DNA of 45,585 bases from a virus (taxonomy: Duplodnaviria; Heunggongvirae; Uroviricota; Caudoviricetes). The notes beneath the pieces are model-generated. The model made no database searches and was not told the DNA's origin. It saw only the letters and a program-made list of their open reading frames with translations. Shown piece by piece: positions 983 to 35,894 of this stretch. Location: IMG/VR virus record IMGVR_UViG_2582580752_000004, one strand, 5' to 3'. The position numbers were made by a program, and so were the translations under genes. Numbering within the stretch: position 1 is the stretch's first letter; each line of letters begins with the position of its first letter.

Positions 983-1011
983 AGTTTAGAAAAATGAACA
1001 TTTAAGGTCAA
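983..1011 (-). promoter_or_regulatory. Candidate sigma70 promoter for the two-gene operon (TTGACC, 17-bp spacer, TAAACT on the minus strand)
   Basis: Hexamer match by eye in the 211-bp gap between the cI stop and the small ORF. Confidence 0.25.
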
Positions 1012-1095
1012 TGTTTTTTTATCAAAACATTTTAAGCAGGCAGCTGTTACGCCATCACTACGATGGCATACAGTTAATCAAATAGATGAGGTTGG

Positions 1096-1734
1096 TTAAA
1101 TATCTTGTTGAATTTTAAAGCATACTCCCAATATGCAAGATAGATCATCCAGCATAATTGAAGGGTAGCGAGGATTCGTGGGGACTAAAAGAATATCCGG
1201 CCCTTCTATCTCCAGTTTGCGAATGACAGGCGTTGTGGTCCCTTTGGGTAAGGCAAGGACAATATTTCCTGGTTGTACGATTCGATCGGGATCAACAAAA
1301 ACTGTTGAACCATTTGGGATGGAAACTCCACCACCAGATGTCGACATACTGTCACTCTCTAGAACAACAGCAAAGGTATTGGCCGGGATTTCTCCGACAA
1401 GCTGCACACAAGAGGTTATTGAGGAATTTTTCATATAATCACTCCAGCTTGCTGCCTGCTGAAGTGATAGTAGCGGAACCGTTTTTATCGGCGGTAAAGA
1501 TAGATCAAGCGAATCACCTGTATTTAACTCTCCTCCATTAAGAAGCCAATTTTCGTTTACTTTCAATATCTTTGCCAGTGAACTTATGTAACGCGAGGAC
1601 GGCGCTCCTCCACCGTTCATCCATTGACTTACGGAGCCTTTTGATGCGCCAGTGGCATTGACAAGGTCTTTGCCTTTCAAGTTTAGCGCATGCATACGTT
1701 GGGTTATGCGTTCAGATATTGTTTGCTTGTTCAT
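1096..1734 (-). CDS. cI-like prophage repressor (N-terminal HTH, C-terminal S24 LexA-type autopeptidase)
   Basis: 212 aa; HTH region GASKGSVSQW, Ser in the DSMS motif and a downstream Lys (VIRKLE) consistent with an S24 Ser-Lys dyad. Divergent from the cro-like gene. Confidence 0.85.
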   Translation of the reverse strand: MNKQTISERITQRMHALNLKGKDLVNATGASKGSVSQWMNGGGAPSSRYISSLAKILKVNENWLLNGGELNTGDSLDLSLPPIKTVPLLSLQQAASWSDYMKNSSITSCVQLVGEIPANTFAVVLESDSMSTSGGGVSIPNGSTVFVDPDRIVQPGNIVLALPKGTTTPVIRKLEIEGPDILLVPTNPRYPSIMLDDLSCILGVCFKIQQDI

Positions 1735-1825
1735 GTTTTGATTTTAAAACACAGATGGTTTTGTTTCTTGACTTTCTTTGGTTTTGATTATTAAACTTTT
1801 GGCGTTCAGTTTTATGGAGCGACTC
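1735..1825. promoter_or_regulatory. Divergent immunity promoter/operator region with two 16-bp palindromic operator-like sites (GTTTTGATTTTAAAAC at about 1735-1750; GTTTTGATTATTAAAC at about 1781-1796)
   Basis: Two near-identical inverted-repeat sites between the divergent repressor and cro-like genes; TTGACT -35-like hexamer at about 1768-1773. Confidence 0.5.
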
Positions 1826-2068
1826 ATGAAAAAATCAGAAGTATTAGGCTATTTTGGCGGAGTTGTTAAAACAGCCGCCGCTCTAGGAACGTCAAAAACC
1901 ACAGTCAGCATGTGGGGGGAAGACGTTCCGTGGAAATGGGCGTTGCTAATTCAGGCAGTCACTGCCGGGGCGCTCAAATATGAGTTACACATACCGACGG
2001 TTGTCATTCCCGATTCTGATCATAATCCGCCTTCTAACCAAGGGGGGATTCATGAAAATCAAGCATGA
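1826..2068 (+). CDS. Cro-like HTH regulator
   Basis: Small ORF divergent from the repressor; GGAG SD 7 nt upstream of the ATG at 1826; HTH-like TAAALGTSKTTVSMW. Confidence 0.6.
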   Translation: MKKSEVLGYFGGVVKTAAALGTSKTTVSMWGEDVPWKWALLIQAVTAGALKYELHIPTVVIPDSDHNPPSNQGGIHENQA

Positions 2069-2477
2069 ACACATCCGCATGGCGATGAATGCCTGGGCGC
2101 ATCCGGACGGCGAAAAAGTACCGACTGCGAAGATTACCAAAGCGTATTTCGAACTGGGTATGACGTTCCCGGAACTGTATGACGACAGCCATCCGGAAGC
2201 CCTGGCTCGCAATACCCAGAAAATTTTCCGCTGGATAGAGAAAGACACCCCTGATGCAGTTGAAAAAATTCAGGCGTTGTTACCAGCGATCGAAAAGGCA
2301 ATGCCACCTTTGCTGGTGGCCAGAATGCGCAGCCACAGTTCAACTTATTTTCGGGAGCTGGTGGAGACGCGGGAGCGACTGGTGAGAGACGCTGATGATT
2401 TTGTCGCAGTGGCAATCGCCGGTTTCAATCAGATGAACCGTGGTGGCCCGGCAGGAAATGCTGTGGCAGTACATTGA
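2052..2477 (+). CDS. YdaT-like protein at the cII position
   Basis: Starts MKIKHEHIRMAMNAWAHPDG after a GGGGGG SD; overlaps the cro-like gene end in another frame. The YdaT assignment is from memory. Confidence 0.5.
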   Translation: MKIKHEHIRMAMNAWAHPDGEKVPTAKITKAYFELGMTFPELYDDSHPEALARNTQKIFRWIEKDTPDAVEKIQALLPAIEKAMPPLLVARMRSHSSTYFRELVETRERLVRDADDFVAVAIAGFNQMNRGGPAGNAVAVH

Positions 2478-2542
2478 CTGACAATAGCCATATCGAATCG
2501 CTTCCGGCAATTCGTGAGTAAAAAGATTCGGTATCAGAGGAG

Positions 2543-3655
2543 GTGAGTATGGCTAACGCTTGGCTCAGATTATGGCATGACATGCCAAATGACCCTAAGT
2601 GGCGAACAATTGCCAGGGTGTCAGGGCAGCCAATTGCAACAGTGATGGCAGTGTATATCCACCTCCTGGTGAGCGCGTCACGAAATGTCACGCGAGGTCA
2701 CATTGATGTCACGACAGAAGATTTGGCAAGTGCGCTCGACGTGACAGAAGAGGTAATTGATTCAATTTTGCAGACGATGCAGGGGCGGGTACTTGATGGT
2801 GATTTAATCACTGGATGGGAGAAACGCCAGGTGCTTAAAGAGGACAACGGCAATATTTCGCAAACCGCAAAATCTCCGGCAGAGCGCAAGAGGGCGCAGC
2901 GTGAGAGGGAAAGAAAGCGGGAACAAAATGGCGATTGTCACGGCGCGTCACGAAATGTCACGCACATGTCACGACGAGTCACGACAGATAAAGATACAGA
3001 TAAAGATACAGATAAAGATACAGATAAAGATACAGATAAAGATACAGATCAAGAAGATCAAAACACTATGGTCCATGGCGTAAAAAACGCCACGAACCAG
3101 GCAGGGGATGTTCAGACCGTCAATCCTGGTCAGCCAGCAGGCACGACACCGGAAGCCGATTCAGCGTATGCGCTGAAAGCCGATTCGGGCGCTGTGCAGC
3201 AGGTGATGACCGCAAGGCCGAAGCAATCACACCAACTGCAGCAGCCTGAAGCCGATTCCGCCATTCAGCGGGAAGCCGATCGGGTAGTCCCGGAAAACAC
3301 CGGGCTGTCTGTGGGACGAGTGGATTATCCGGATGTGTTCGAACAGGTCTGGCGGGAGTACCCGTTGCGTGCCGGAGCAAACCCGAAGAAATCCGCATTC
3401 AGTGCCTGGAAGGCCAGATTGCGCGAGGGGGTGCCACCAGAGACCATGCTGGATGGTGTGAGGCGTTACGCGAGATACCTGGCGGCGACCGGGAAAGCGG
3501 GAACGGAATTTGTTCAGCGAGCGACGACGTTTTTTGGGCCGGACCGGAATTTTGAAAACCCCTGGTTGCTCCCGGTAAGCGGCACGAACAACCAGCGTTG
3601 TGTGAATCATATTTCTGAACCGGATACCGAAATTCCGCCGGGATTCAGGGGGTGA
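2543..3655 (+). CDS. Phage replication initiation protein (O-like/DnaT-like) with internal (DKDT)x5 repeat
   Basis: 370 aa, immediately upstream of the DnaC-like gene; GGAGG SD; contains iteron-like DNA repeats. Confidence 0.6.
   Translation: MSMANAWLRLWHDMPNDPKWRTIARVSGQPIATVMAVYIHLLVSASRNVTRGHIDVTTEDLASALDVTEEVIDSILQTMQGRVLDGDLITGWEKRQVLKEDNGNISQTAKSPAERKRAQRERERKREQNGDCHGASRNVTHMSRRVTTDKDTDKDTDKDTDKDTDKDTDQEDQNTMVHGVKNATNQAGDVQTVNPGQPAGTTPEADSAYALKADSGAVQQVMTARPKQSHQLQQPEADSAIQREADRVVPENTGLSVGRVDYPDVFEQVWREYPLRAGANPKKSAFSAWKARLREGVPPETMLDGVRRYARYLAATGKAGTEFVQRATTFFGPDRNFENPWLLPVSGTNNQRCVNHISEPDTEIPPGFRG
2673..2963. repeat. Two copies of a 21-bp direct repeat GCGCGTCACGAAATGTCACGC (about 2673-2693 and 2943-2963), each followed by further GTCACG hexamers; candidate ori iterons
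   Basis: Exact 21-bp repeat read by eye; four to five GTCAC(G) hexamers in each cluster. Confidence 0.6.
2987..3046. repeat. 12-bp tandem repeat (GATAAAGATACA) x5 inside the replication initiator gene
   Basis: Five perfect tandem copies encoding DKDT x5; anchored to the ORF frame at 2901. Confidence 0.85.
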
Positions 3656-3661
3656 TGTGGC

Positions 3662-4408
3662 ATGAAAAACATTGCGGCAGCCGGGGTTCTTGAACGTATT
3701 CGCAGACTTGCACCACCGGCGTCGGTTCCACCGTACCGGACGGTGGAGGAGTGGCGGGAATGGCAACTTGCTGAAGGACGAAAACGCAGCGAGGAGATTA
3801 ACCGCCAGAATCACCAGTTGCGGGTGGAAAAAATCCTGAATCGTTCGGGCATCCAGCCTCTGCACAGCAAATGCTCGTTTGCGAATTATCAGGTGCAGAA
3901 CGACGGGCAAAAATACGCGCTGAGCCAGGCCAAATCCATAGCTGACGAACTGATGACCGGGTGCACGAATTTTGTGTTCAGCGGTAAAACCGGCACCGGG
4001 AAAAATCACCTTGCAGCGGCGATGGGTAACCGGCTGATGGCGAAGGGGCGCAGCGTGATTATCGTCACCGTGTCTGATGTCATGAGCGTGTTGCATGACA
4101 GCTACGACAACGGCAAATCCGGGGAAAAATTTTTACAGGAGCTTTGCAGTGTTGATTTGCTGGTCCTGGATGAAATAGGCGTTCAGCGGGAGACGAAAAA
4201 CGAGCAGGTGGTATTACACCAGATAATTGATCGCCGGACAGCATCACTGTGCAGTGTCGGGATGTTAACAAACCTGAATCATGCCGCAATGAGTACGCTT
4301 CTTGGTGAGAGGATTATGGACCGCATGACCATGAACGGTGGTCGATGGGTGACGTTTAACTGGGATAGCTGGCGTCCAAATGTCAGCAATATGAGGGTTG
4401 TGAAGTAA
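3662..4408 (+). CDS. DnaC-like replicative helicase loader (AAA+ ATPase)
   Basis: Walker A GKTGTGKNHLAAA, Walker B LLVLDEIG; 248 aa; directly follows the initiator gene. Confidence 0.85.
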   Translation: MKNIAAAGVLERIRRLAPPASVPPYRTVEEWREWQLAEGRKRSEEINRQNHQLRVEKILNRSGIQPLHSKCSFANYQVQNDGQKYALSQAKSIADELMTGCTNFVFSGKTGTGKNHLAAAMGNRLMAKGRSVIIVTVSDVMSVLHDSYDNGKSGEKFLQELCSVDLLVLDEIGVQRETKNEQVVLHQIIDRRTASLCSVGMLTNLNHAAMSTLLGERIMDRMTMNGGRWVTFNWDSWRPNVSNMRVVK

Positions 4409-4429
4409 TTTTGTCCGGAGGAAATTTTA

Positions 4430-5200
4430 ATGGAAACCGTATCTGACGCACTGAAAGCACTGAAAAAAGCCTCTTCACATGTGGTGGCAGCTCGCCTTGG
4501 AATCAGTCGTGAAGAGGCTGTCAACGAGCTGTGGGAACTCAAAAGAAATGGCGTCGTTGATAAAACTGGTCACACCTGGTTTCTGGCTGGCGAAGGTGAA
4601 TCCCGGGTAACCGAAGAGCGGCCAGTAAAATCTGAAGCACAGGATATGCTGACCGGGGAGGTCGAACAAAAAGTTACCGCAGACATGATGATTGAGTTTA
4701 TCGGTCAGGATGGGGCTAAAACGTGTGAGGAACTGGCGGGTAAGTTCGGTGTCAGTACTCGCAAGGTTGCTTCCACGCTGGCGGTGGTAACCGCAACGGG
4801 GCGGCTGGCACGCGTTAATCAGAACGGTAAATTTCGTTACTGCATGCCGGGCGATAATTTACCAGCAGAGCCGAAAGCCGCGCTGGTAACGGAAAGTGAT
4901 GGTAAGGCCTTTCCTCAGCCAGCAGGTGCTGCGTTACCAGTCCGGGAAGCCGCAACACAGGAAGAAATTAAAACAGAAACTGTGGCGGACATTGTGCAGC
5001 CGTTGCCATCGTTTACCGAAACGCAAGCAGATGAGCTGATTTTTCCGTCCCTTCGCAGGGCAAACCTGGCGCTGCGCAGGGCGAAAAGTGATGTTCAGAA
5101 GTGGGAGCGAGTCTGCGCCGCGCTGCGGGAGCTGAACAAGCACCGGGATATTGTTCGACAGATTACTGATTCTTCCCGCCGTGTTGTATCGGAAAAGTGA
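4430..5200 (+). CDS. Hypothetical phage protein with two winged-helix-like segments
   Basis: 256-aa ORF starting 22 nt after the DnaC-like stop. Confidence 0.55.
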   Translation: METVSDALKALKKASSHVVAARLGISREEAVNELWELKRNGVVDKTGHTWFLAGEGESRVTEERPVKSEAQDMLTGEVEQKVTADMMIEFIGQDGAKTCEELAGKFGVSTRKVASTLAVVTATGRLARVNQNGKFRYCMPGDNLPAEPKAALVTESDGKAFPQPAGAALPVREAATQEEIKTETVADIVQPLPSFTETQADELIFPSLRRANLALRRAKSDVQKWERVCAALRELNKHRDIVRQITDSSRRVVSEK

Positions 5201-26216: not shown

Positions 26217-28179
26217 TCTTTCACACATTATTGCCGCAGCATTCAATGAACCGCTGCTTCTGGAGCCCGCCTATGCGCGGGTTTTCTTTTGCGCGCTCGG
26301 GCGCGAGATGGGGGCAGCAAGTCTTTCGGTACCACAACAGCAGGTACAGCTTGATGCTCCCGGAATGCTGGCTGAAACGGACGAGTACATGGCCGGAGGT
26401 AAACGACCGGCCCGTGTTTACCGGGTGGTGAACGGTATTGCGGTACTGCCGGTGACCGGCACGCTGGTGCACCGGCTGGGGGGGATGCGGCCATTTTCCG
26501 GAATGACTGGCTATGACGGCATTGTCGCCTGTCTTCAGCAGGCAATGGCAGATAGCCAGGTGCGGGGCATACTGCTGGACATTGACAGTCCGGGCGGGCA
26601 GGCCGCCGGCGCGTTTGACTGCGCTGACATGATTTACCGCCTCCGTCAGCAGAAGCCGGTCTGGGCACTGTGCAATGACACGGCCTGTTCTGCAGCCATG
26701 CTGCTGGCGTCGGCCTGCTCCCGACGGCTGGTTACCCAGACATCCCGTATCGGCTCCATTGGCGTGATGATGAGCCATGTCAGCTATGCCGGTCATCTGG
26801 CGCAGGCCGGTGTGGATATCACGCTGATTTACTCAGGGGCGCACAAGGTGGATGGCAATCAGTTTGAAGCCTTACCGGCAGAGGTTCGCCAGGACATGCA
26901 GCAGCGCATTGATGCGGCGCGCCGGATGTTTGCCGAAAAAGTGGCGATGTTTACCGGTCTGTCTGTTGATGCCGTCACGGGAACAGAGGCCGCCGTTTTT
27001 GAAGGTCAGTCCGGCATTGAGGCCGGGCTGGCGGATGAATTAGTCAATGCGTCGGATGCCATCAGTGTGATGGCCACGGCGCTGAACAGTAATGTCAGAG
27101 GAGGCACTATGCCGCAATTAACTGCAACGGAAGCCGCCGCGCAGGAGAACCAGCGAGTGATGGGGATCCTGACATGCCAGGAAGCGAAAGGACGTGAACA
27201 GCTTGCCACGATGCTGGCAGGACAACAGGGCATGAGCGTTGAACAGGCCCGGGCGATTCTGGCCGCGGCGGCACCGCAGCAGCCGGTGGCATCCACGCAG
27301 AGTGAAGCCGATCGCATTATGGCGTGTGAAGAAGCGAACGGTCGTGAACAACTGGCGGCAACGCTGGCGGCGATGCCGGAGATGACGGTGGAAAAAGCCC
27401 GCCCGATCCTGGCTGCTTCACCGCAGGCGGATGCCGGACCCTCACTCCGTGATCAGATCATGGCACTGGATGAGGCAAAAGGGGCTGAGGCCAGGCTGAC
27501 GGATGAATTAGTCAATGCGTCGGATGCCATCAGTGTGATGGCCACGGCGCTGAACAGTAATGTCAGAGGAGGCACTATGCCGCAATTAACTGCAACGGAA
27601 GCCGCCGCGCAGGAGAACCAGCGAGTGATGGGGATCCTGACATGCCAGGAAGCGAAAGGACGTGAACAGCTTGCCACGATGCTGGCAGGACAACAGGGCA
27701 TGAGCGTTGAACAGGCCCGGGCGATTCTGGCCGCGGCGGCACCGCAGCAGCCGGTGGCATCCACGCAGAGTGAAGCCGATCGCATTATGGCGTGTGAAGA
27801 AGCGAACGGTCGTGAACAACTGGCGGCAACGCTGGCGGCGATGCCGGAGATGACGGTGGAAAAAGCCCGCCCGATCCTGGCTGCTTCACCGCAGGCGGAT
27901 GCCGGACCCTCACTCCGTGATCAGATCATGGCACTGGATGAGGCAAAAGGGGCTGAGGCGCAGGCTGAACAACTGGCTGCCTGCCCGGGAATGACTGTGG
28001 AGAGCGCCCGGGCTGTGCTGGCTGCGGGATCAGGTAAGGCAGAACCGGTCTCTGCATCCACAACCGCCCTGTTTGAACGCATCATGGCGAACCATTCACC
28101 GGCAGCGGTACAGGGTGGCGTGCCACAGACGTCAGCAGACGGTGATGCGGACGTGAAAATGCTCATGGCCATGCCATGA
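26206..28179 (+). CDS. C: Head maturation protease C (S49/ClpP-like) with in-frame scaffold (Nu3-like) C-terminal region; contains a 156-codon tandem duplication
   Basis: 657-aa ORF in the lambda C position; residues ADELVNASD...DEAKGAEA occur twice in tandem. Confidence 0.85.
   Translation: MRRNLSHIIAAAFNEPLLLEPAYARVFFCALGREMGAASLSVPQQQVQLDAPGMLAETDEYMAGGKRPARVYRVVNGIAVLPVTGTLVHRLGGMRPFSGMTGYDGIVACLQQAMADSQVRGILLDIDSPGGQAAGAFDCADMIYRLRQQKPVWALCNDTACSAAMLLASACSRRLVTQTSRIGSIGVMMSHVSYAGHLAQAGVDITLIYSGAHKVDGNQFEALPAEVRQDMQQRIDAARRMFAEKVAMFTGLSVDAVTGTEAAVFEGQSGIEAGLADELVNASDAISVMATALNSNVRGGTMPQLTATEAAAQENQRVMGILTCQEAKGREQLATMLAGQQGMSVEQARAILAAAAPQQPVASTQSEADRIMACEEANGREQLAATLAAMPEMTVEKARPILAASPQADAGPSLRDQIMALDEAKGAEARLTDELVNASDAISVMATALNSNVRGGTMPQLTATEAAAQENQRVMGILTCQEAKGREQLATMLAGQQGMSVEQARAILAAAAPQQPVASTQSEADRIMACEEANGREQLAATLAAMPEMTVEKARPILAASPQADAGPSLRDQIMALDEAKGAEAQAEQLAACPGMTVESARAVLAAGSGKAEPVSASTTALFERIMANHSPAAVQGGVPQTSADGDADVKMLMAMP
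27032..27967. repeat. Perfect 468-bp in-frame tandem duplication (2 copies) within the C/Nu3 gene
   Basis: Minus-strand ORF pairs in the track are identical at a 468-bp offset (27107/27575, 27118/27586); junctions carry GAGGC...GGCTG microhomology. Confidence 0.85.
27577..28179 (+). CDS. Putative nested scaffold protein (Nu3-like) from an internal in-frame start
   Basis: Strong internal SD AGAGGAGG plus ATG (MPQLTATEAAAQ...) in the C frame; the same SD/ATG also occurs at 27109 because of the duplication. Confidence 0.4.
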   Translation: MPQLTATEAAAQENQRVMGILTCQEAKGREQLATMLAGQQGMSVEQARAILAAAAPQQPVASTQSEADRIMACEEANGREQLAATLAAMPEMTVEKARPILAASPQADAGPSLRDQIMALDEAKGAEAQAEQLAACPGMTVESARAVLAAGSGKAEPVSASTTALFERIMANHSPAAVQGGVPQTSADGDADVKMLMAMP

Positions 28180-33007: not shown

Positions 33008-35894
33008 TCTTGTTATTGACCTGAGTCTGGATGCGGTCCGTTTCGATGAGCAGATGAGCCGGGTAAGGCGTCATTTTTCAGGTCTGGATACCGACGTCAA
33101 AAAAACCGCCAGTGCTGTTGAACAGGGCCTGAGCCGCCAGGCGCTGGCTGCACAAAAAGCCGGGATTTCCGTCGGGCAGTATAAAGCGGCCATGCGAACC
33201 CTGCCCGCACAGTTTACGGATATCGCCACGCAGCTTGCCGGTGGTCAGAATCCCTGGCTGATCCTGCTGCAACAGGGCGGTCAGGTGAAGGACTCCTTCG
33301 GCGGGATGATCCCCATGTTCAGGGGACTTGCCGGTGCGATCACCCTGCCGATGGTCGGGGTCACCTCGCTGGCGGTGGCGACAGGTGCGCTGGCGTACGC
33401 CTGGTACCTGGGGGATTCCACGCTTTCAGCGTTTAATAAAACCCTGGTTCTTTCCGGTAATCAGTCCGGACTGACTGCCGATCGCATGCTGACGCTCTCC
33501 AGAGCCGGACAGGCCGCAGGGCTGACGTTTAACCAGGCGAGAGAGTCACTGGCAGCCCTGGTGAATGCCGGTGTGCGTGGTGGTGAACAGTTTGATGCCA
33601 TCAACCAGAGTGTCGCGCGTTTTGCTTCTGCATCCGGTGTGGAGGTGGACAAGGTTGCAGAGGCTTTCGGAAAACTGACCACCGACCCGACGTCGGGGCT
33701 GATTGCGATGGCGCGCCAGTTCCGTAACGTGACGGCAGAGCAGATTGCGTATGTTGCGCAGCTGCAGCGTTCCGGTGATGAGGCCGGGGCCTTACAGGCG
33801 GCGAACGATATCGCCACGAAAGGCTTTGATGAGCAGACCCGTCGCCTGAAAGAAAACATGGGGACACTGGAGACCTGGGCGGATAAAACAGGGAAGGCGT
33901 TCAAATCGATGTGGGATGCCATTCTGGATATCGGTCGTCCTGAGTCCTCAGCGGATATGCTCGCCAGTGCACAGAAGGCATTTGATGAGGCGGATAAAAA
34001 ATGGCAGTGGTACCAGAGCCGGAGCCAGCGCCGGGGAAAAACCGCCTCTTTCCGGGCCAACCTTCAGGGCGCATGGAATGACCGGGAAAATGCCCGTCTG
34101 GGGCTGGCAGCGGCCACGCTGCAGTCGGATATGGAAAAAGCCGGTGAACTGGCCGCCAGGGACCGGGCCGAACGGGACGCATCACAGCTGAAGTATACCG
34201 GAGAGGCGCAGAAGGCGTATGAGCGTCTGCTGACGCCGCTGGAGAAATATACCGCCCGTCAGGAAGAACTGAATAAGGCCCTGAAAGACGGGAAAATCCT
34301 GCAGGCGGATTACAACACGCTGATGGCGGCGGCGAAAAAGGATTATGAATCGACGCTGAAAAAGCCGAAGTCGTCAGGAGTCAAAGTGTCAGCCGGTGAG
34401 CGTCAGGAAGACCTGACGCATGCGGCGCTGCTGGCGCTTGAAACCGAGCTCCGGACGCTGGAGAAGCACAGCGGAGCGAATGAGAAAATCAGCCGGCAGC
34501 GCCGTGATTTATGGAAGGCGGAAAGTCAGTATGCGGTCCTGAAAGAGGCTGCCACGAAACGACAGTTATCTGAGCAGGAAAAATCCCTGCTGGCCCATGA
34601 GCAAGAGACGCTGGAGTACAAACGCCAGCTGGCTGACCTGGGCGACAAGGTTGAACACCAGAAACGCCTGAATGAGCTGGCACAGCAGGCGGCGCGGTTT
34701 GAGCAGCAGCAGGGCGCGAAGCAGGCAGCCATCAGCGCAAAAGCCCGCGGCCTCACCGACCGTCAGGCGCAGCGGGAGTCGGAAGAGCAGCGCCTTCGTG
34801 ACGTGTACGGTGATAATCCGGCTGCGCTGGCGAAGGCCACATCTGCACTGAAGAACACCTGGTCTGCGGAGGAGCAGCTTCGTGGAAGCTGGATGGCCGG
34901 GCTGAAGTCCGGCTGGGGCGAGTGGGCAGAAAGTGCGACGGACAGTTTTTCGCAGGTTAAAAGCGTGGCCACGCAGACCTTTGACGGTATTGCACAGAAT
35001 ATGGCAGCGATGCTGACCGGCAGCGAACAGAACTGGCGTGGTTTCACCCGTTCTGTGCTCTCCATGCTGACAGAGATTTTTCTGAAGCAGGCGATGGTGG
35101 GGATAGTCGGGAGTATCGGCAGCGCCATGGGTGGTGCTTTCGGTGGTGGTGCGTCTGCCTCCACGGGGACGGCCATTCAGGCTGCGGCGGCGAACTTCCA
35201 TTTCGCGACCGGGGGATTTACGGGGACGGGGGGTAAATATGAACCTGCGGGGATTGTTCATCGCGGGGAGTTTGTCTTCACGAAGGAAGCAACCAGCCGG
35301 ATTGGCGTCGGCAACCTGTACCGCCTGATGCGGGGCTATGCGGAAGGTGGTTATGTGGGCGGTGCCGGAAGTCCGGCGCAGATGCGGCGGACGGAAGGCA
35401 TTAATTTTAATCAGAACAATCACGTGGTGATTCAGAACGACGGCACCAACGGACAGGCGGGGCCGCAGCTGATGAAGGCGGTGTATGACATGGCCCGCAA
35501 GGGGGCGCAGGATGAGCTCCGGCTGCAGTTGCGTGATGGCGGTATGTTATCCGGGGAGCGGGCGATGAAAACCTTTCGCTGGAAAGTGAAGCCGGATATG
35601 GAGGTGAACTCGCAGCCATCGGTGCGTGAAGTGCGTTTTGGTGACGGGTATTCGCAGCGTATGGCGGCGGGGCTGAATGCTGACCTGAAAACATACCGTG
35701 TGACGCTTTCCGTGACCCGGGAGGAGGCCCGACATCTGGAGGCATTCCTGGCAGAGCACGGTGGCTGGAAGGCGTTTCTGTGGACACCGCCTTATGCCTG
35801 GCGGCAGATAAAGGTGACCTGTGCCGCCTGGTCATCACGGATTCGCATGCTGCGGGTTGAATTCAGTGCCGAGTTTAAGCAGGTGGTGAACTGA
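32988..35894 (+). CDS. H: Tail tape-measure protein (lambda gpH-like), here with no stop before the M-homologous segment
   Basis: 968-aa ORF: about 859 aa collinear with lambda H, then 109 aa collinear with lambda M in the same frame. Confidence 0.85.
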   Translation: MSQPVGDLVIDLSLDAVRFDEQMSRVRRHFSGLDTDVKKTASAVEQGLSRQALAAQKAGISVGQYKAAMRTLPAQFTDIATQLAGGQNPWLILLQQGGQVKDSFGGMIPMFRGLAGAITLPMVGVTSLAVATGALAYAWYLGDSTLSAFNKTLVLSGNQSGLTADRMLTLSRAGQAAGLTFNQARESLAALVNAGVRGGEQFDAINQSVARFASASGVEVDKVAEAFGKLTTDPTSGLIAMARQFRNVTAEQIAYVAQLQRSGDEAGALQAANDIATKGFDEQTRRLKENMGTLETWADKTGKAFKSMWDAILDIGRPESSADMLASAQKAFDEADKKWQWYQSRSQRRGKTASFRANLQGAWNDRENARLGLAAATLQSDMEKAGELAARDRAERDASQLKYTGEAQKAYERLLTPLEKYTARQEELNKALKDGKILQADYNTLMAAAKKDYESTLKKPKSSGVKVSAGERQEDLTHAALLALETELRTLEKHSGANEKISRQRRDLWKAESQYAVLKEAATKRQLSEQEKSLLAHEQETLEYKRQLADLGDKVEHQKRLNELAQQAARFEQQQGAKQAAISAKARGLTDRQAQRESEEQRLRDVYGDNPAALAKATSALKNTWSAEEQLRGSWMAGLKSGWGEWAESATDSFSQVKSVATQTFDGIAQNMAAMLTGSEQNWRGFTRSVLSMLTEIFLKQAMVGIVGSIGSAMGGAFGGGASASTGTAIQAAAANFHFATGGFTGTGGKYEPAGIVHRGEFVFTKEATSRIGVGNLYRLMRGYAEGGYVGGAGSPAQMRRTEGINFNQNNHVVIQNDGTNGQAGPQLMKAVYDMARKGAQDELRLQLRDGGMLSGERAMKTFRWKVKPDMEVNSQPSVREVRFGDGYSQRMAAGLNADLKTYRVTLSVTREEARHLEAFLAEHGGWKAFLWTPPYAWRQIKVTCAAWSSRIRMLRVEFSAEFKQVVN
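35565..35894 (+). CDS. M: Minor tail protein (lambda gpM-like), internal start within the fused H-M frame
   Basis: MKTFRWKVKP...RVEFSAEFKQVVN matches gpM; GGAG SD upstream of its ATG. Confidence 0.7.
   Translation: MKTFRWKVKPDMEVNSQPSVREVRFGDGYSQRMAAGLNADLKTYRVTLSVTREEARHLEAFLAEHGGWKAFLWTPPYAWRQIKVTCAAWSSRIRMLRVEFSAEFKQVVN

What the first reader, a model, noticed from the sequence alone, without database searches (positions are those of the whole stretch)
2673..3046. Iteron-like repeats inside the replication initiator gene (candidate origin)
The O-like gene contains an exact 21-bp direct repeat about 270 bp apart, each followed by more GTCACG hexamers, and then five perfect tandem 12-bp repeats that encode (DKDT)x5. 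Lambda places its iterons inside O, so this is probably the origin with the initiator binding its own coding sequence. Perfect tandem copies could also be recent slippage.
Basis: seen in the sequence. Interest (0 to 1): 0.45.

Follow-up and report, generated by a model that had tools for sequence, protein, structure and literature searches.

The report
Prophage replication origin inside initiator gene
The repeats are real and are almost certainly binding sites of a prophage replication origin embedded in the gene of its own initiator protein, a layout long known from phage lambda but here found in an uncharacterised initiator family that occurs in nearly half of complete E. coli genomes.

Summary
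There is an exact 21-bp repeat at 2673 and 2943. Nine GTCACG boxes lie in 307 bp (0.18 expected, P≈4e-13). A 12-bp unit repeated 5.9 times (2984-3054) forms the AT-richest spot of the region.

The boxes form two arrays, A (2677-2713, plus an inverted box at 2740) and B (2937-2983), spaced 10-11 bp apart, so they fall in all three codon phases.

Across 21 diverged homologues, synonymous sites inside the boxes are 93% identical, against 41% outside them. Relatives keep GTCACG in both arrays in 28 loci from many genera. More distant relatives carry GTAACG (5 loci) or CGAACG (11 loci), always the same box in both arrays.

An AT-rich, purine-rich AGATAAAGA tract follows array B in 44 loci.

The N-terminal module and its boxes travel together. 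The C-terminal domain and the helicase partner are swapped between loci: DnaC-like, lambda-P-like or primase-helicase.

The 12-mer copy number varies from 1 to 5 among near-identical genes, so the expansion is slippage of a conserved tract.

Verdict: a lambda/SPP1-style origin (iterons plus an unwinding element) in a replisome-organizer-like initiator that is not a lambda O homologue. It is a new member of a known kind, and it has not been tested experimentally.

The parts
2549..3655 (+). Replication initiator gene, 368 aa (phage replisome-organizer-like). It comprises an N-terminal winged-helix module, a linker and a C-terminal domain that pairs with the loader.
   Evidence: ORF; homologues start at MANAW, which is 2549. 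PHROG 3729 'replication initiation protein', E 1.8e-253. No Pfam family at E<=0.01. NCBI names relatives 'phage replisome organizer'.
2549..2845 (+). Coding region of the winged-helix N-domain (aa 1-99).
2677..2713 (+). Box array A: GTCACG at 2677, 2687 and 2708, and a degenerate GTCACA at 2697, spaced 10/10/11 bp. It encodes the end of helix 3 and the loop at aa 46-55.
   Evidence: Synonymous third positions inside the boxes are 0.93 identical against 0.41 outside them across 21 loci, p=1.5e-6.
2740..2745 (-). Inverted GTCACG box 32 bp downstream of array A.
   Evidence: The same inverted box sits at gene nt 192 (or 180 in loci whose match starts 4 codons later) in many relatives.
2937..2983 (+). 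Box array B: five GTCACG boxes at 2937, 2947, 2957, 2968 and 2978. It encodes a disordered linker (aa 130-145).
   Evidence: pLDDT is below 50 here. The array is kept at the equivalent position in 28 loci of many genera, and is replaced by GTAACG or CGAACG arrays in more distant relatives.
2673..2693 (+). First copy of the exact 21-bp repeat (two boxes plus their spacer).
2943..2963 (+). Second copy of the exact 21-bp repeat.
2984..3066 (+). AT-rich, purine-rich tract, the candidate DNA unwinding element. It contains the 12-bp tandem repeat ACAGATAAAGAT x5.9 (2984-3054), which encodes (DKDT)5, and two GATC sites at 3047 and 3056.
   Evidence: for the tandem repeat. GC is 0.25 at 2990-3049. The equivalent tract in 44 loci has AT 0.65 against 0.43 and purine 0.69 against 0.54, p about 1e-8. 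Copy number runs from 1 to 5 among 83 near-identical genes. GATC sites.
3069..3099 (.). Inverted repeat (hairpin) just to the right of the AT-rich tract. Whether it belongs to the origin is uncertain.
   Evidence: free energy -8.7 kcal/mol, z-score -3.7. Its conservation was not examined.
3060..3655 (+). Coding region of the exchangeable C-terminal domain. Its tail, ...EIPPGFRG, resembles the C-terminus of DnaT.
   Evidence: Many E. coli genomes match only nt 512-1107 or only nt 1-458 of the gene. NCBIfam DnaT matches aa 345-368, E 0.0017, far below the family cut-off. Similar tails occur only in loci whose next gene is DnaC-like.
3662..4408 (+). DnaC-like helicase loader, the initiator's presumed partner.
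   Evidence: NCBIfam PRK12377, 509 bits, and DnaC, E 6e-89. Pfam IstB_IS21. PHROG 50.

Best explanation
This stretch is the replication origin of a lambdoid prophage, embedded in the gene of its own initiator.

Proposed mechanism, by analogy and not shown:
1. The N-terminal module of the initiator (aa 1 to about 150: a winged helix plus a basic helix) binds head-to-tail to 6-bp boxes spaced one helical turn apart. These form two arrays, A (four boxes plus one inverted) and B (five boxes), about 260 bp apart.
2. Array B abuts an AT-rich, purine-asymmetric tract, which here has expanded into five perfect 12-mers. The loaded initiator complex melts this tract.
3. The C-terminal domain then brings in the DnaC-like loader with host DnaB.
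4. Array A probably helps by building a larger or looped complex, or by regulation.

What is shown: the boxes are under selection as DNA; the box sequence changes in both arrays together and with the initiator lineage; and the boxes travel with the N-terminal module.

What is inferred: binding by the initiator, melting of the tract, and origin firing.
For: - Clustering is far beyond chance: 9 boxes against 0.18 expected, P=3.9e-13.
- Spacing is 10-11 bp, so boxes fall in all three codon phases. A peptide repeat would not do that.
- Across 21 diverged homologues, synonymous third positions are 0.93 identical inside boxes and 0.41 outside, p=1.5e-6.
- 28 loci from Escherichia, Pseudomonas, Bordetella, Serratia, Aquitalea, Acidovorax, Gilvimarinus and others keep GTCACG in both arrays at the same positions. 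Five loci have GTAACG in both arrays and 11 have CGAACG in both. No locus mixes classes.
- The loop that array A encodes takes insertions made of extra boxes: +7, +14 and +22 aa.
- An AT-rich, purine-rich AGATAAAGA tract directly follows the last box in 44 loci, even in loci that are about 60% GC. The AT-rich region of lambda ori is likewise purine-asymmetric (PMC5043065).
- The N-module and its boxes are the constant unit. C-domains and partners differ: DnaC-like, lambda-P-like, Toprim-DnaB primase-helicase or DUF6475.
- The N-domain is predicted to be a winged helix similar to the DnaD N-terminal domain and Crp, and is a distant relative of PF09681.
- Precedents: lambda ori lies in O (PMC7466680), and SPP1 oriL lies in gene 38 and is bound by the replisome organizer G38P (PMC5737612).
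Against: - There is no experimental evidence for binding or for origin activity in this family. None was found in the searchable literature.
- The predicted 'recognition' helix (aa 67-77) is acidic, and the winged helix of DnaD mainly serves oligomerisation. Which part of the N-module reads the boxes is therefore unknown.
- Nine homologous loci show no obvious boxes, so the N-domain can exist without them.
- The spacing between the arrays is not conserved: about 260 bp in the GTCACG class and about 220-230 bp in several CGAACG-class loci (e.g. L111, L113, L114, L117, L120, L124), though it is larger in others. This weakens any strict looping geometry.
- The 12-mer copy number varies freely, so the expanded repeat itself is not needed.
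Confidence: 0.78

Rival explanations
1. The boxes are bound by the initiator but are not the origin. They would serve autoregulation, copy-number control (handcuffing) or as a transcription roadblock, and replication would start elsewhere in the phage.
For: The arrays lie inside the initiator's own transcription unit. Array A has no AT-rich tract next to it. L118 has array B but no array A, which shows that the two arrays can be uncoupled.
Against: Array B is always followed directly by an AT-rich, purine-asymmetric tract, the classic origin signature. No other box cluster exists anywhere in the 45.6-kb window. The known precedents, lambda and SPP1, place the origin exactly at such sites (PMC7466680, PMC5737612).
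Confidence: 0.1
2. The boxes are sites for a different DNA-binding protein, for example a phage regulator, a partition or packaging protein, or a host factor, and happen to lie in this gene.
For: No direct evidence identifies the binder. The predicted recognition helix of the winged helix is acidic.
Against: The only gene that always accompanies the boxes is the N-module itself. Repressor and Cro types, the C-domain, the loader and the host genus all vary. The box class follows the N-module lineage. There are no DnaA boxes with one mismatch or fewer in 2600-3100.
Confidence: 0.07
3. The repeats have no function as DNA. They would be peptide repeats (SRNVT, DKDT) or recent slippage and gene conversion within a tolerant linker.
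For: The 12-mer copy number runs from 1 to 5 among near-identical genes, so that part does behave as a slippage-prone repeat. The exact 21-bp identity between the arrays in the E. coli lineage could come from gene conversion.
Against: The 10-11 bp period puts the boxes in all three reading frames. Synonymous sites within boxes are nearly frozen while neighbouring ones are saturated. The boxes persist from Escherichia to Pseudomonas and Bordetella despite about 30-35% protein divergence.
Confidence: 0.03

Closest known systems
Phage lambda ori within gene O (and lambdoid or Stx-phage variants)
   Same: The origin lies in the middle of the initiator gene. An array of initiator-binding repeats sits next to an AT-rich tract that is strongly purine-asymmetric. 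The N-terminal part of the initiator goes with the origin, and the C-terminal part goes with the helicase loader. The gene sits after cro and cII in the rightward early operon (PMC7466680, PMC5043065).
   Different: There is no sequence relationship to lambda O: no PF04492 hit. Lambda iterons are repeats of about 19 bp, four to six in one array, that bind O dimers (dimer binding: PMC5043065; the ~19-bp length is from my own knowledge). Here the repeats are 6-bp direct boxes at every helical turn, in two arrays about 260 bp apart. The loader here is DnaC-like rather than P.
Bacillus phage SPP1 oriL in gene 38 (replisome organizer G38P, AB boxes plus an unwinding element)
   Same: The origin is embedded in the organizer gene. 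Short repeated boxes are bound by the organizer's N-terminal part and sit next to an AT-rich unwinding element. The initiator is not an AAA+ protein (PMC5737612). The N-domain here aligns over its full length, though below threshold, to PF09681 Phage_rep_org_N. One relative carries PF09524, the family that paper assigns to G38P.
   Different: The similarity is below Pfam's gathering score. The hosts are Proteobacteria. The partners are DnaC-like, P-like or a primase-helicase rather than G39P and G40P. The box sequences are unrelated. No second copy like SPP1 oriR was found in the window.
E. coli DnaT-DnaC pair and DnaD-type primosome or organizer proteins
   Same: A DnaC-like loader gene directly follows the initiator gene. 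The initiator's C-terminal tail resembles the DnaT C-terminus. The N-domain fold resembles the DnaD N-terminal domain. Host dnaC is regarded as a domesticated phage gene (PMC5109545).
   Different: The DnaT match covers only 24 residues and scores far below the family cut-off (18 bits against 201). DnaT and DnaD are not known to bind iterons sequence-specifically (my own knowledge).
Tandem binding by OmpR/PhoB-type winged helices (an analogy for binding geometry only)
   Same: Winged-helix domains bind head-to-tail to short direct repeats spaced 10-11 bp apart, on one face of the DNA (my own knowledge). That matches the box spacing here.
   Different: It is a transcription factor family with no homology shown here. 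It is a lead from memory, not a test.

Membership tests
Lambda O family (Pfam PF04492 Phage_rep_O) | Sequence match of the N-terminal domain to the Phage_rep_O profile | tested here: not met
   No Pfam family at E<=0.01 for the whole protein. PF04492 is absent even at E<=10 for 23 N-domains.
Lambda O family (Pfam PF04492 Phage_rep_O) | Origin (iterons plus an AT-rich tract) in the middle of the gene | tested here: met
   Sequence signature only. Origin activity was not tested.
Phage replisome organizer (Pfam PF09681 / TIGR01714, N-terminal domain) | Profile match above the curated cut-off | tested here: inconclusive
   Full-length alignment of aa 5-123 to profile positions 1-119 of 121, but 16.2 bits against a cut-off of 23.3. 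Eight of 23 relatives match, best E 9e-4. TIGR01714 gives E 0.017. NCBI names relatives 'phage replisome organizer'.
Phage replisome organizer (Pfam PF09681 / TIGR01714, N-terminal domain) | Winged-helix, DnaD-like fold of the N-domain | tested here: met
Phage replisome organizer (Pfam PF09681 / TIGR01714, N-terminal domain) | Binds repeated boxes in an origin located in its own gene, as SPP1 G38P does | not testable with these tools
   Supported only indirectly by covariation and co-inheritance. It needs EMSA or footprinting.
Iteron-type replication origin | Multiple directly repeated, phased sites in excess of chance | tested here: met
   P=3.9e-13, and the spacing is 10 or 11 bp in 125 of 135 neighbouring GTCACG box pairs across the loci.
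Iteron-type replication origin | Site sequence is specific to, and evolves together with, the cognate initiator | tested here: met
   There are three box classes (GTCACG, GTAACG, CGAACG). Each is identical in both arrays of a locus and follows the N-domain lineage.
Iteron-type replication origin | Adjacent AT-rich DNA unwinding element | tested here: met
   GC 0.25 at 2990-3049. The tract is conserved in 44 loci. Actual unwinding was not tested.
Iteron-type replication origin | Supports autonomous replication when the initiator is supplied | not testable with these tools
   Requires cloning into an ori-less vector, or marker-frequency analysis.

The most novel reading that the evidence does not exclude
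The winged-helix loop (aa 44-56) and the linker (aa 130-145) are 'iteron cassettes': protein segments whose amino-acid sequence is set by the DNA sites that the same protein binds.

These box-encoded peptides are the parts of the N-module that differ most clearly between the three box classes: SRNVT.RGH..VT against SNATERGRT against mixed forms. They could themselves contribute to box recognition. A change of origin specificity would then alter the site and its reader in one mutational step. That would make a self-referential specificity switch, and a natural series of orthogonal initiator/origin pairs.
Probability: 0.1. Interest if true: 0.7.

Novelty: new member of a known kind. Interest (0 to 1): 0.35.

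Why it matters
Parts of this gene match 2502 of 5426 complete E. coli genomes, and 1645 of those carry a match over at least 80% of its length. Relatives occur in prophages of many Proteobacteria. I found no description of its origin in the searchable literature.

Knowing the origin and its box code gives three things:
- It predicts which co-resident prophages can compete for, or cross-activate, each other's replication.
- It offers three naturally orthogonal box classes on an otherwise conserved protein scaffold, which is useful for studying how initiator specificity evolves.
- It shows plainly how a DNA function can override protein coding: boxes sit in all three frames, and a protein loop grows by insertion of further boxes.

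It does not change the general picture of how phage origins are built.

Tried and rejected
- Pfam on the whole protein: no family.
- Profile of 23 N-domains against PDB sequences: only noise.
- Rfam at E<=1 across 1000-5000: only a chance lncRNA hit, so no RNA element explains the repeats.
- Promoter and terminator scan: counts no higher than in shuffles. The one promoter-like hit inside array B on the minus strand is made of the boxes themselves.
- DnaA boxes with one mismatch or fewer: none in 2600-3100, and no enrichment in the window. A DnaA-dependent origin signature was therefore dropped.
- GATC: two sites flank the AT-rich tract, but GATC is depleted across the whole window and this was not pursued.
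- Full-text searches (GTCACG with origin and phage; replisome organizer with iterons; lambdoid replication modules; phage D3) found no description of this origin.
- A strict looping geometry between the arrays was considered and weakened, because the spacing between arrays differs among classes.
- The first viral-contig scan returned only near-identical N-domains. That was useful for copy number but not for divergence. The one-genome-per-species scan supplied the diversity.

Full report
**Setting.**
The window is an E. coli-type lambdoid prophage. Around the finding the genes run as follows:
- an S24-peptidase cI-like repressor (1096-1734, minus strand);
- a P22-Cro-like gene (1826-2068);
- a YdaT/CII-like gene (2052-2477);
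- a 368-aa protein (2549-3655);
- a DnaC-like helicase loader (3662-4408);
- a DUF1627 gene.

The 368-aa protein matches PHROG 3729 'replication initiation protein' (E 1.8e-253). It matches no Pfam family at E<=0.01, and in particular not lambda O (Phage_rep_O).

**Checking the observation.**
- The 21-mer GCGCGTCACGAAATGTCACGC occurs exactly twice, at 2673 and 2943.
- GTCACG occurs at 2677, 2687, 2708, 2740 (minus strand), 2937, 2947, 2957, 2968 and 2978, with a degenerate GTCACA at 2697.
- That is nine boxes in 307 bp against 0.18 expected from the rest of the window (Poisson P=3.9e-13). No other 307-bp stretch has more than two.
- The tandem repeat is 2984-3054, period 12, 5.9 copies, 98% matches. 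Five perfect GATAAAGATACA units start at 2987.
- The repeat is the GC minimum of the region, 0.25.

**Anatomy.**
The boxes form two arrays.
- Array A (2677-2713) has four boxes spaced 10/10/11 bp, with an inverted box 32 bp further on.
- Array B (2937-2983) has five boxes spaced 10/10/11/10 bp.

Because the period is 10-11 bp, the boxes fall in all three codon phases. A repeated peptide would not do that.

Array A encodes the end of helix 3 and the loop at aa 46-55. Array B encodes the disordered linker. Both arrays therefore sit where the protein can tolerate almost any sequence.

**Are the boxes selected as DNA?**
I collected homologous loci by three routes:
- annotated phages and E. coli genomes;
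- viral contigs;
- one genome per species (52 loci from gamma-, beta- and alpha-proteobacteria).

For 21 loci of the GTCACG class whose first 100 codons align without gaps (protein identity about 58-75% to the window protein), I compared third codon positions of codons with a conserved amino acid. Mean pairwise identity is 0.93 at the 10 sites inside boxes and 0.41 at the 38 sites outside (Mann-Whitney p=1.5e-6). Most box positions are invariant in all 21 sequences, while the neighbouring synonymous sites are saturated. This is selection on the DNA sequence itself.

**Covariation.**
- Twenty-eight loci keep GTCACG in both arrays at the same gene positions (about nt 129-160 and about nt 390-430). 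They include Escherichia, Shigella, E. albertii, Pseudomonas, Bordetella, Serratia, Rahnella, Aquitalea, Chromobacterium, Acidovorax, Gilvimarinus and Castellaniella.
- More distant N-domains carry a different box at the same two places and with the same 10-bp spacing: GTAACG in 5 loci and CGAACG(C) in 11.
- No locus mixes classes between its two arrays.
- The three boxes share an ACG 3' half and differ in the 5' triplet.
- The loop encoded by array A accepts insertions made of additional boxes: +7 aa in L002, L003 and L085, +14 aa in L123 and +22 aa in L109.
- Nine loci have no obvious boxes, and L118 has array B only.

**The tandem repeat.**
Directly after the last box of array B, 44 loci carry an AT-rich, purine-rich tract. 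AT is 0.65 against 0.43 in the rest of the gene, and purine is 0.69 against 0.54 (both p about 1e-8). The tract usually begins (A/C)(C/T)AGATAAAGATA. It is present even in loci that are about 60% GC, for example Variovorax L135, which has (GATAAA)x6.

The window's 12-mer is therefore an expanded form of a conserved element. Among 83 genes with near-identical N-modules, the number of perfect GATAAAGATACA units is 1 (11 genes), 2 (57), 3 (10), 4 (3) or 5 (2, one of which is the window), while the boxes stay fixed. Most full-length E. coli matches are 36 nt shorter than the window gene, which fits three fewer units.

The tract itself is conserved and is best read as the unwinding element. The AT-rich region of lambda ori has the same purine strand asymmetry (PMC5043065).

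**Modularity.**
In E. coli genomes many matches cover only nt 1-458 or only nt 512-1107 of the gene, with the break at the AT-rich tract. The same N-module with its boxes is joined to unrelated C-domains and followed by different partners:
- DnaC-like loaders (window, L106, L123);
- lambda-P-like proteins (L002, L003, L086, L108);
- a Toprim-DnaB primase-helicase (Pseudomonas phage phi1, L001);
- a DUF6475 protein (L120).

Repressor and Cro types and the host genus also vary. The only constant companion of the boxes is the N-module, which makes it the most likely binder. This is the same division of labour as in lambda O.

**Comparison with known systems.**
- In lambda and the Stx phages the origin (iterons plus an AT-rich tract) lies in the middle of O (PMC7466680).
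- In SPP1, oriL (AB boxes plus an unwinding element) is embedded in gene 38 and is bound by the replisome organizer G38P (PMC5737612).

The present protein is not a lambda O homologue by sequence. It is a distant, sub-threshold relative of the replisome-organizer N-domain: PF09681 aligns aa 5-123 to profile positions 1-119 of 121, at 16 bits against a cut-off of 23, and 8 of 23 relatives match, best E 9e-4. NCBI annotators name its relatives 'phage replisome organizer'.

It differs from lambda in three ways. The sites are short 6-bp direct boxes at every helical turn rather than repeats of about 19 bp that bind O dimers. There are two arrays. The loader is DnaC-like.

Its C-terminal tail (…IPPGFRG) weakly resembles the DnaT C-terminus. 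Similar tails recur only in loci whose next gene is DnaC-like. This hints at a docking motif for DnaC, but that is an inference.

**Mechanism proposed.**
*Shown:*
- Phased boxes are under DNA-level selection.
- The box class is shared by both arrays and follows the initiator lineage.
- The AT-rich, purine-rich tract is conserved.
- The boxes are inherited together with the N-module.

*Inferred:*
- N-modules bind head-to-tail on one face of the DNA at arrays A and B.
- The complex, possibly bridging the two arrays, melts the adjacent tract.
- The C-domain recruits the DnaC-like loader with DnaB.

*Not resolved:*
- It is unknown which residues read the boxes, and the predicted recognition helix is acidic.
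- It is unknown whether array A is essential.
- It is unknown whether transcription through the gene is required, as it is in lambda.

**Rivals.**
- Peptide repeats or pure slippage are excluded for the boxes by the frame and synonymous-site results, and accepted only for the 12-mer copy number.
- A different binding protein is unlikely, because nothing else travels with the boxes, and no DnaA boxes are present.
- A purely regulatory role for initiator binding, with the origin elsewhere, cannot be excluded without experiments. It is disfavoured by the conserved unwinding-type tract and by the absence of any other box cluster in the window.

**Novelty and verdict.**
The design principle is textbook. 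The particular family, its box code and its bipartite layout were not found in the searchable literature. Older papers in subscription journals could not be searched.

I rate it a new member of a known kind, of moderate interest. It is a solid, testable origin prediction for a replication module whose gene matches in 2502 of 5426 complete E. coli genomes, 1645 of them over at least 80% of its length. It also offers a neat natural case of orthogonal initiator/site classes and of DNA function overriding coding sequence.

Noticed in passing
window 27018-27968: Tandem duplication of a 468-bp unit, 2.0 copies, 99% identical.
   Followed up: no
window 44713-45330: Tandem array of a 141-bp unit, 4.4 copies, 98% identical, near the end of the window.
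   Followed up: no
window 16710-16925: An exact 81-bp tandem duplication (16710-16874) overlaps an exact 31-bp x2.1 repeat (16862-16925).
   Followed up: no
window 33484-41838: No GATC site occurs in about 8.3 kb. GATC is also depleted in the window as a whole: 115 found against 175 expected.
   Followed up: no
window 3069-3099: A stable inverted repeat (free energy -8.7 kcal/mol, z-score -3.7) lies just to the right of the AT-rich tract. From my own knowledge, lambda ori has a palindrome in a similar position. Its conservation in relatives was not examined.
   Followed up: partly
window 3583-3655; L106 and L123 initiator C-termini: The initiator's C-terminal tail...IPPGFRG, weakly matches the DnaT C-terminus. 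Similar tails (IPDGFRG, KPAGFS) appear only where the next gene is DnaC-like. It may be a docking motif for DnaC.
   Followed up: partly
L109 nt ~1640-1720; L123; L002/L003/L085: The winged-helix loop encoded by array A carries insertions of 7, 14 or 22 aa that consist of extra boxes, so the loop grows by adding binding sites.
   Followed up: partly
L125 and L133, gene nt ~329-360: These two loci have the same N-domain but no GTCACG-type boxes. The protein continues into a different C-part, and the DNA carries ACTACG/TACGTA repeats instead.
   Followed up: no
L001, L087, L090, L094, L095 and others, just after the AT-rich tract: A run of C (CCCCCC, encoding Pro-Pro) often closes the purine-rich tract. 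Its meaning is unknown.
   Followed up: no
L001 2501-3400 (Pseudomonas phage phi1, KT887557): The initiator ORF (310 aa from the upstream GTG at L001 2468; about 299 aa from the homologous ATG at 2501) that carries the boxes is not annotated in the deposited record. Only a 68-aa ORF that overlaps its start by a few bases and the downstream primase-helicase, labelled 'replication protein P', are annotated.
   Followed up: partly
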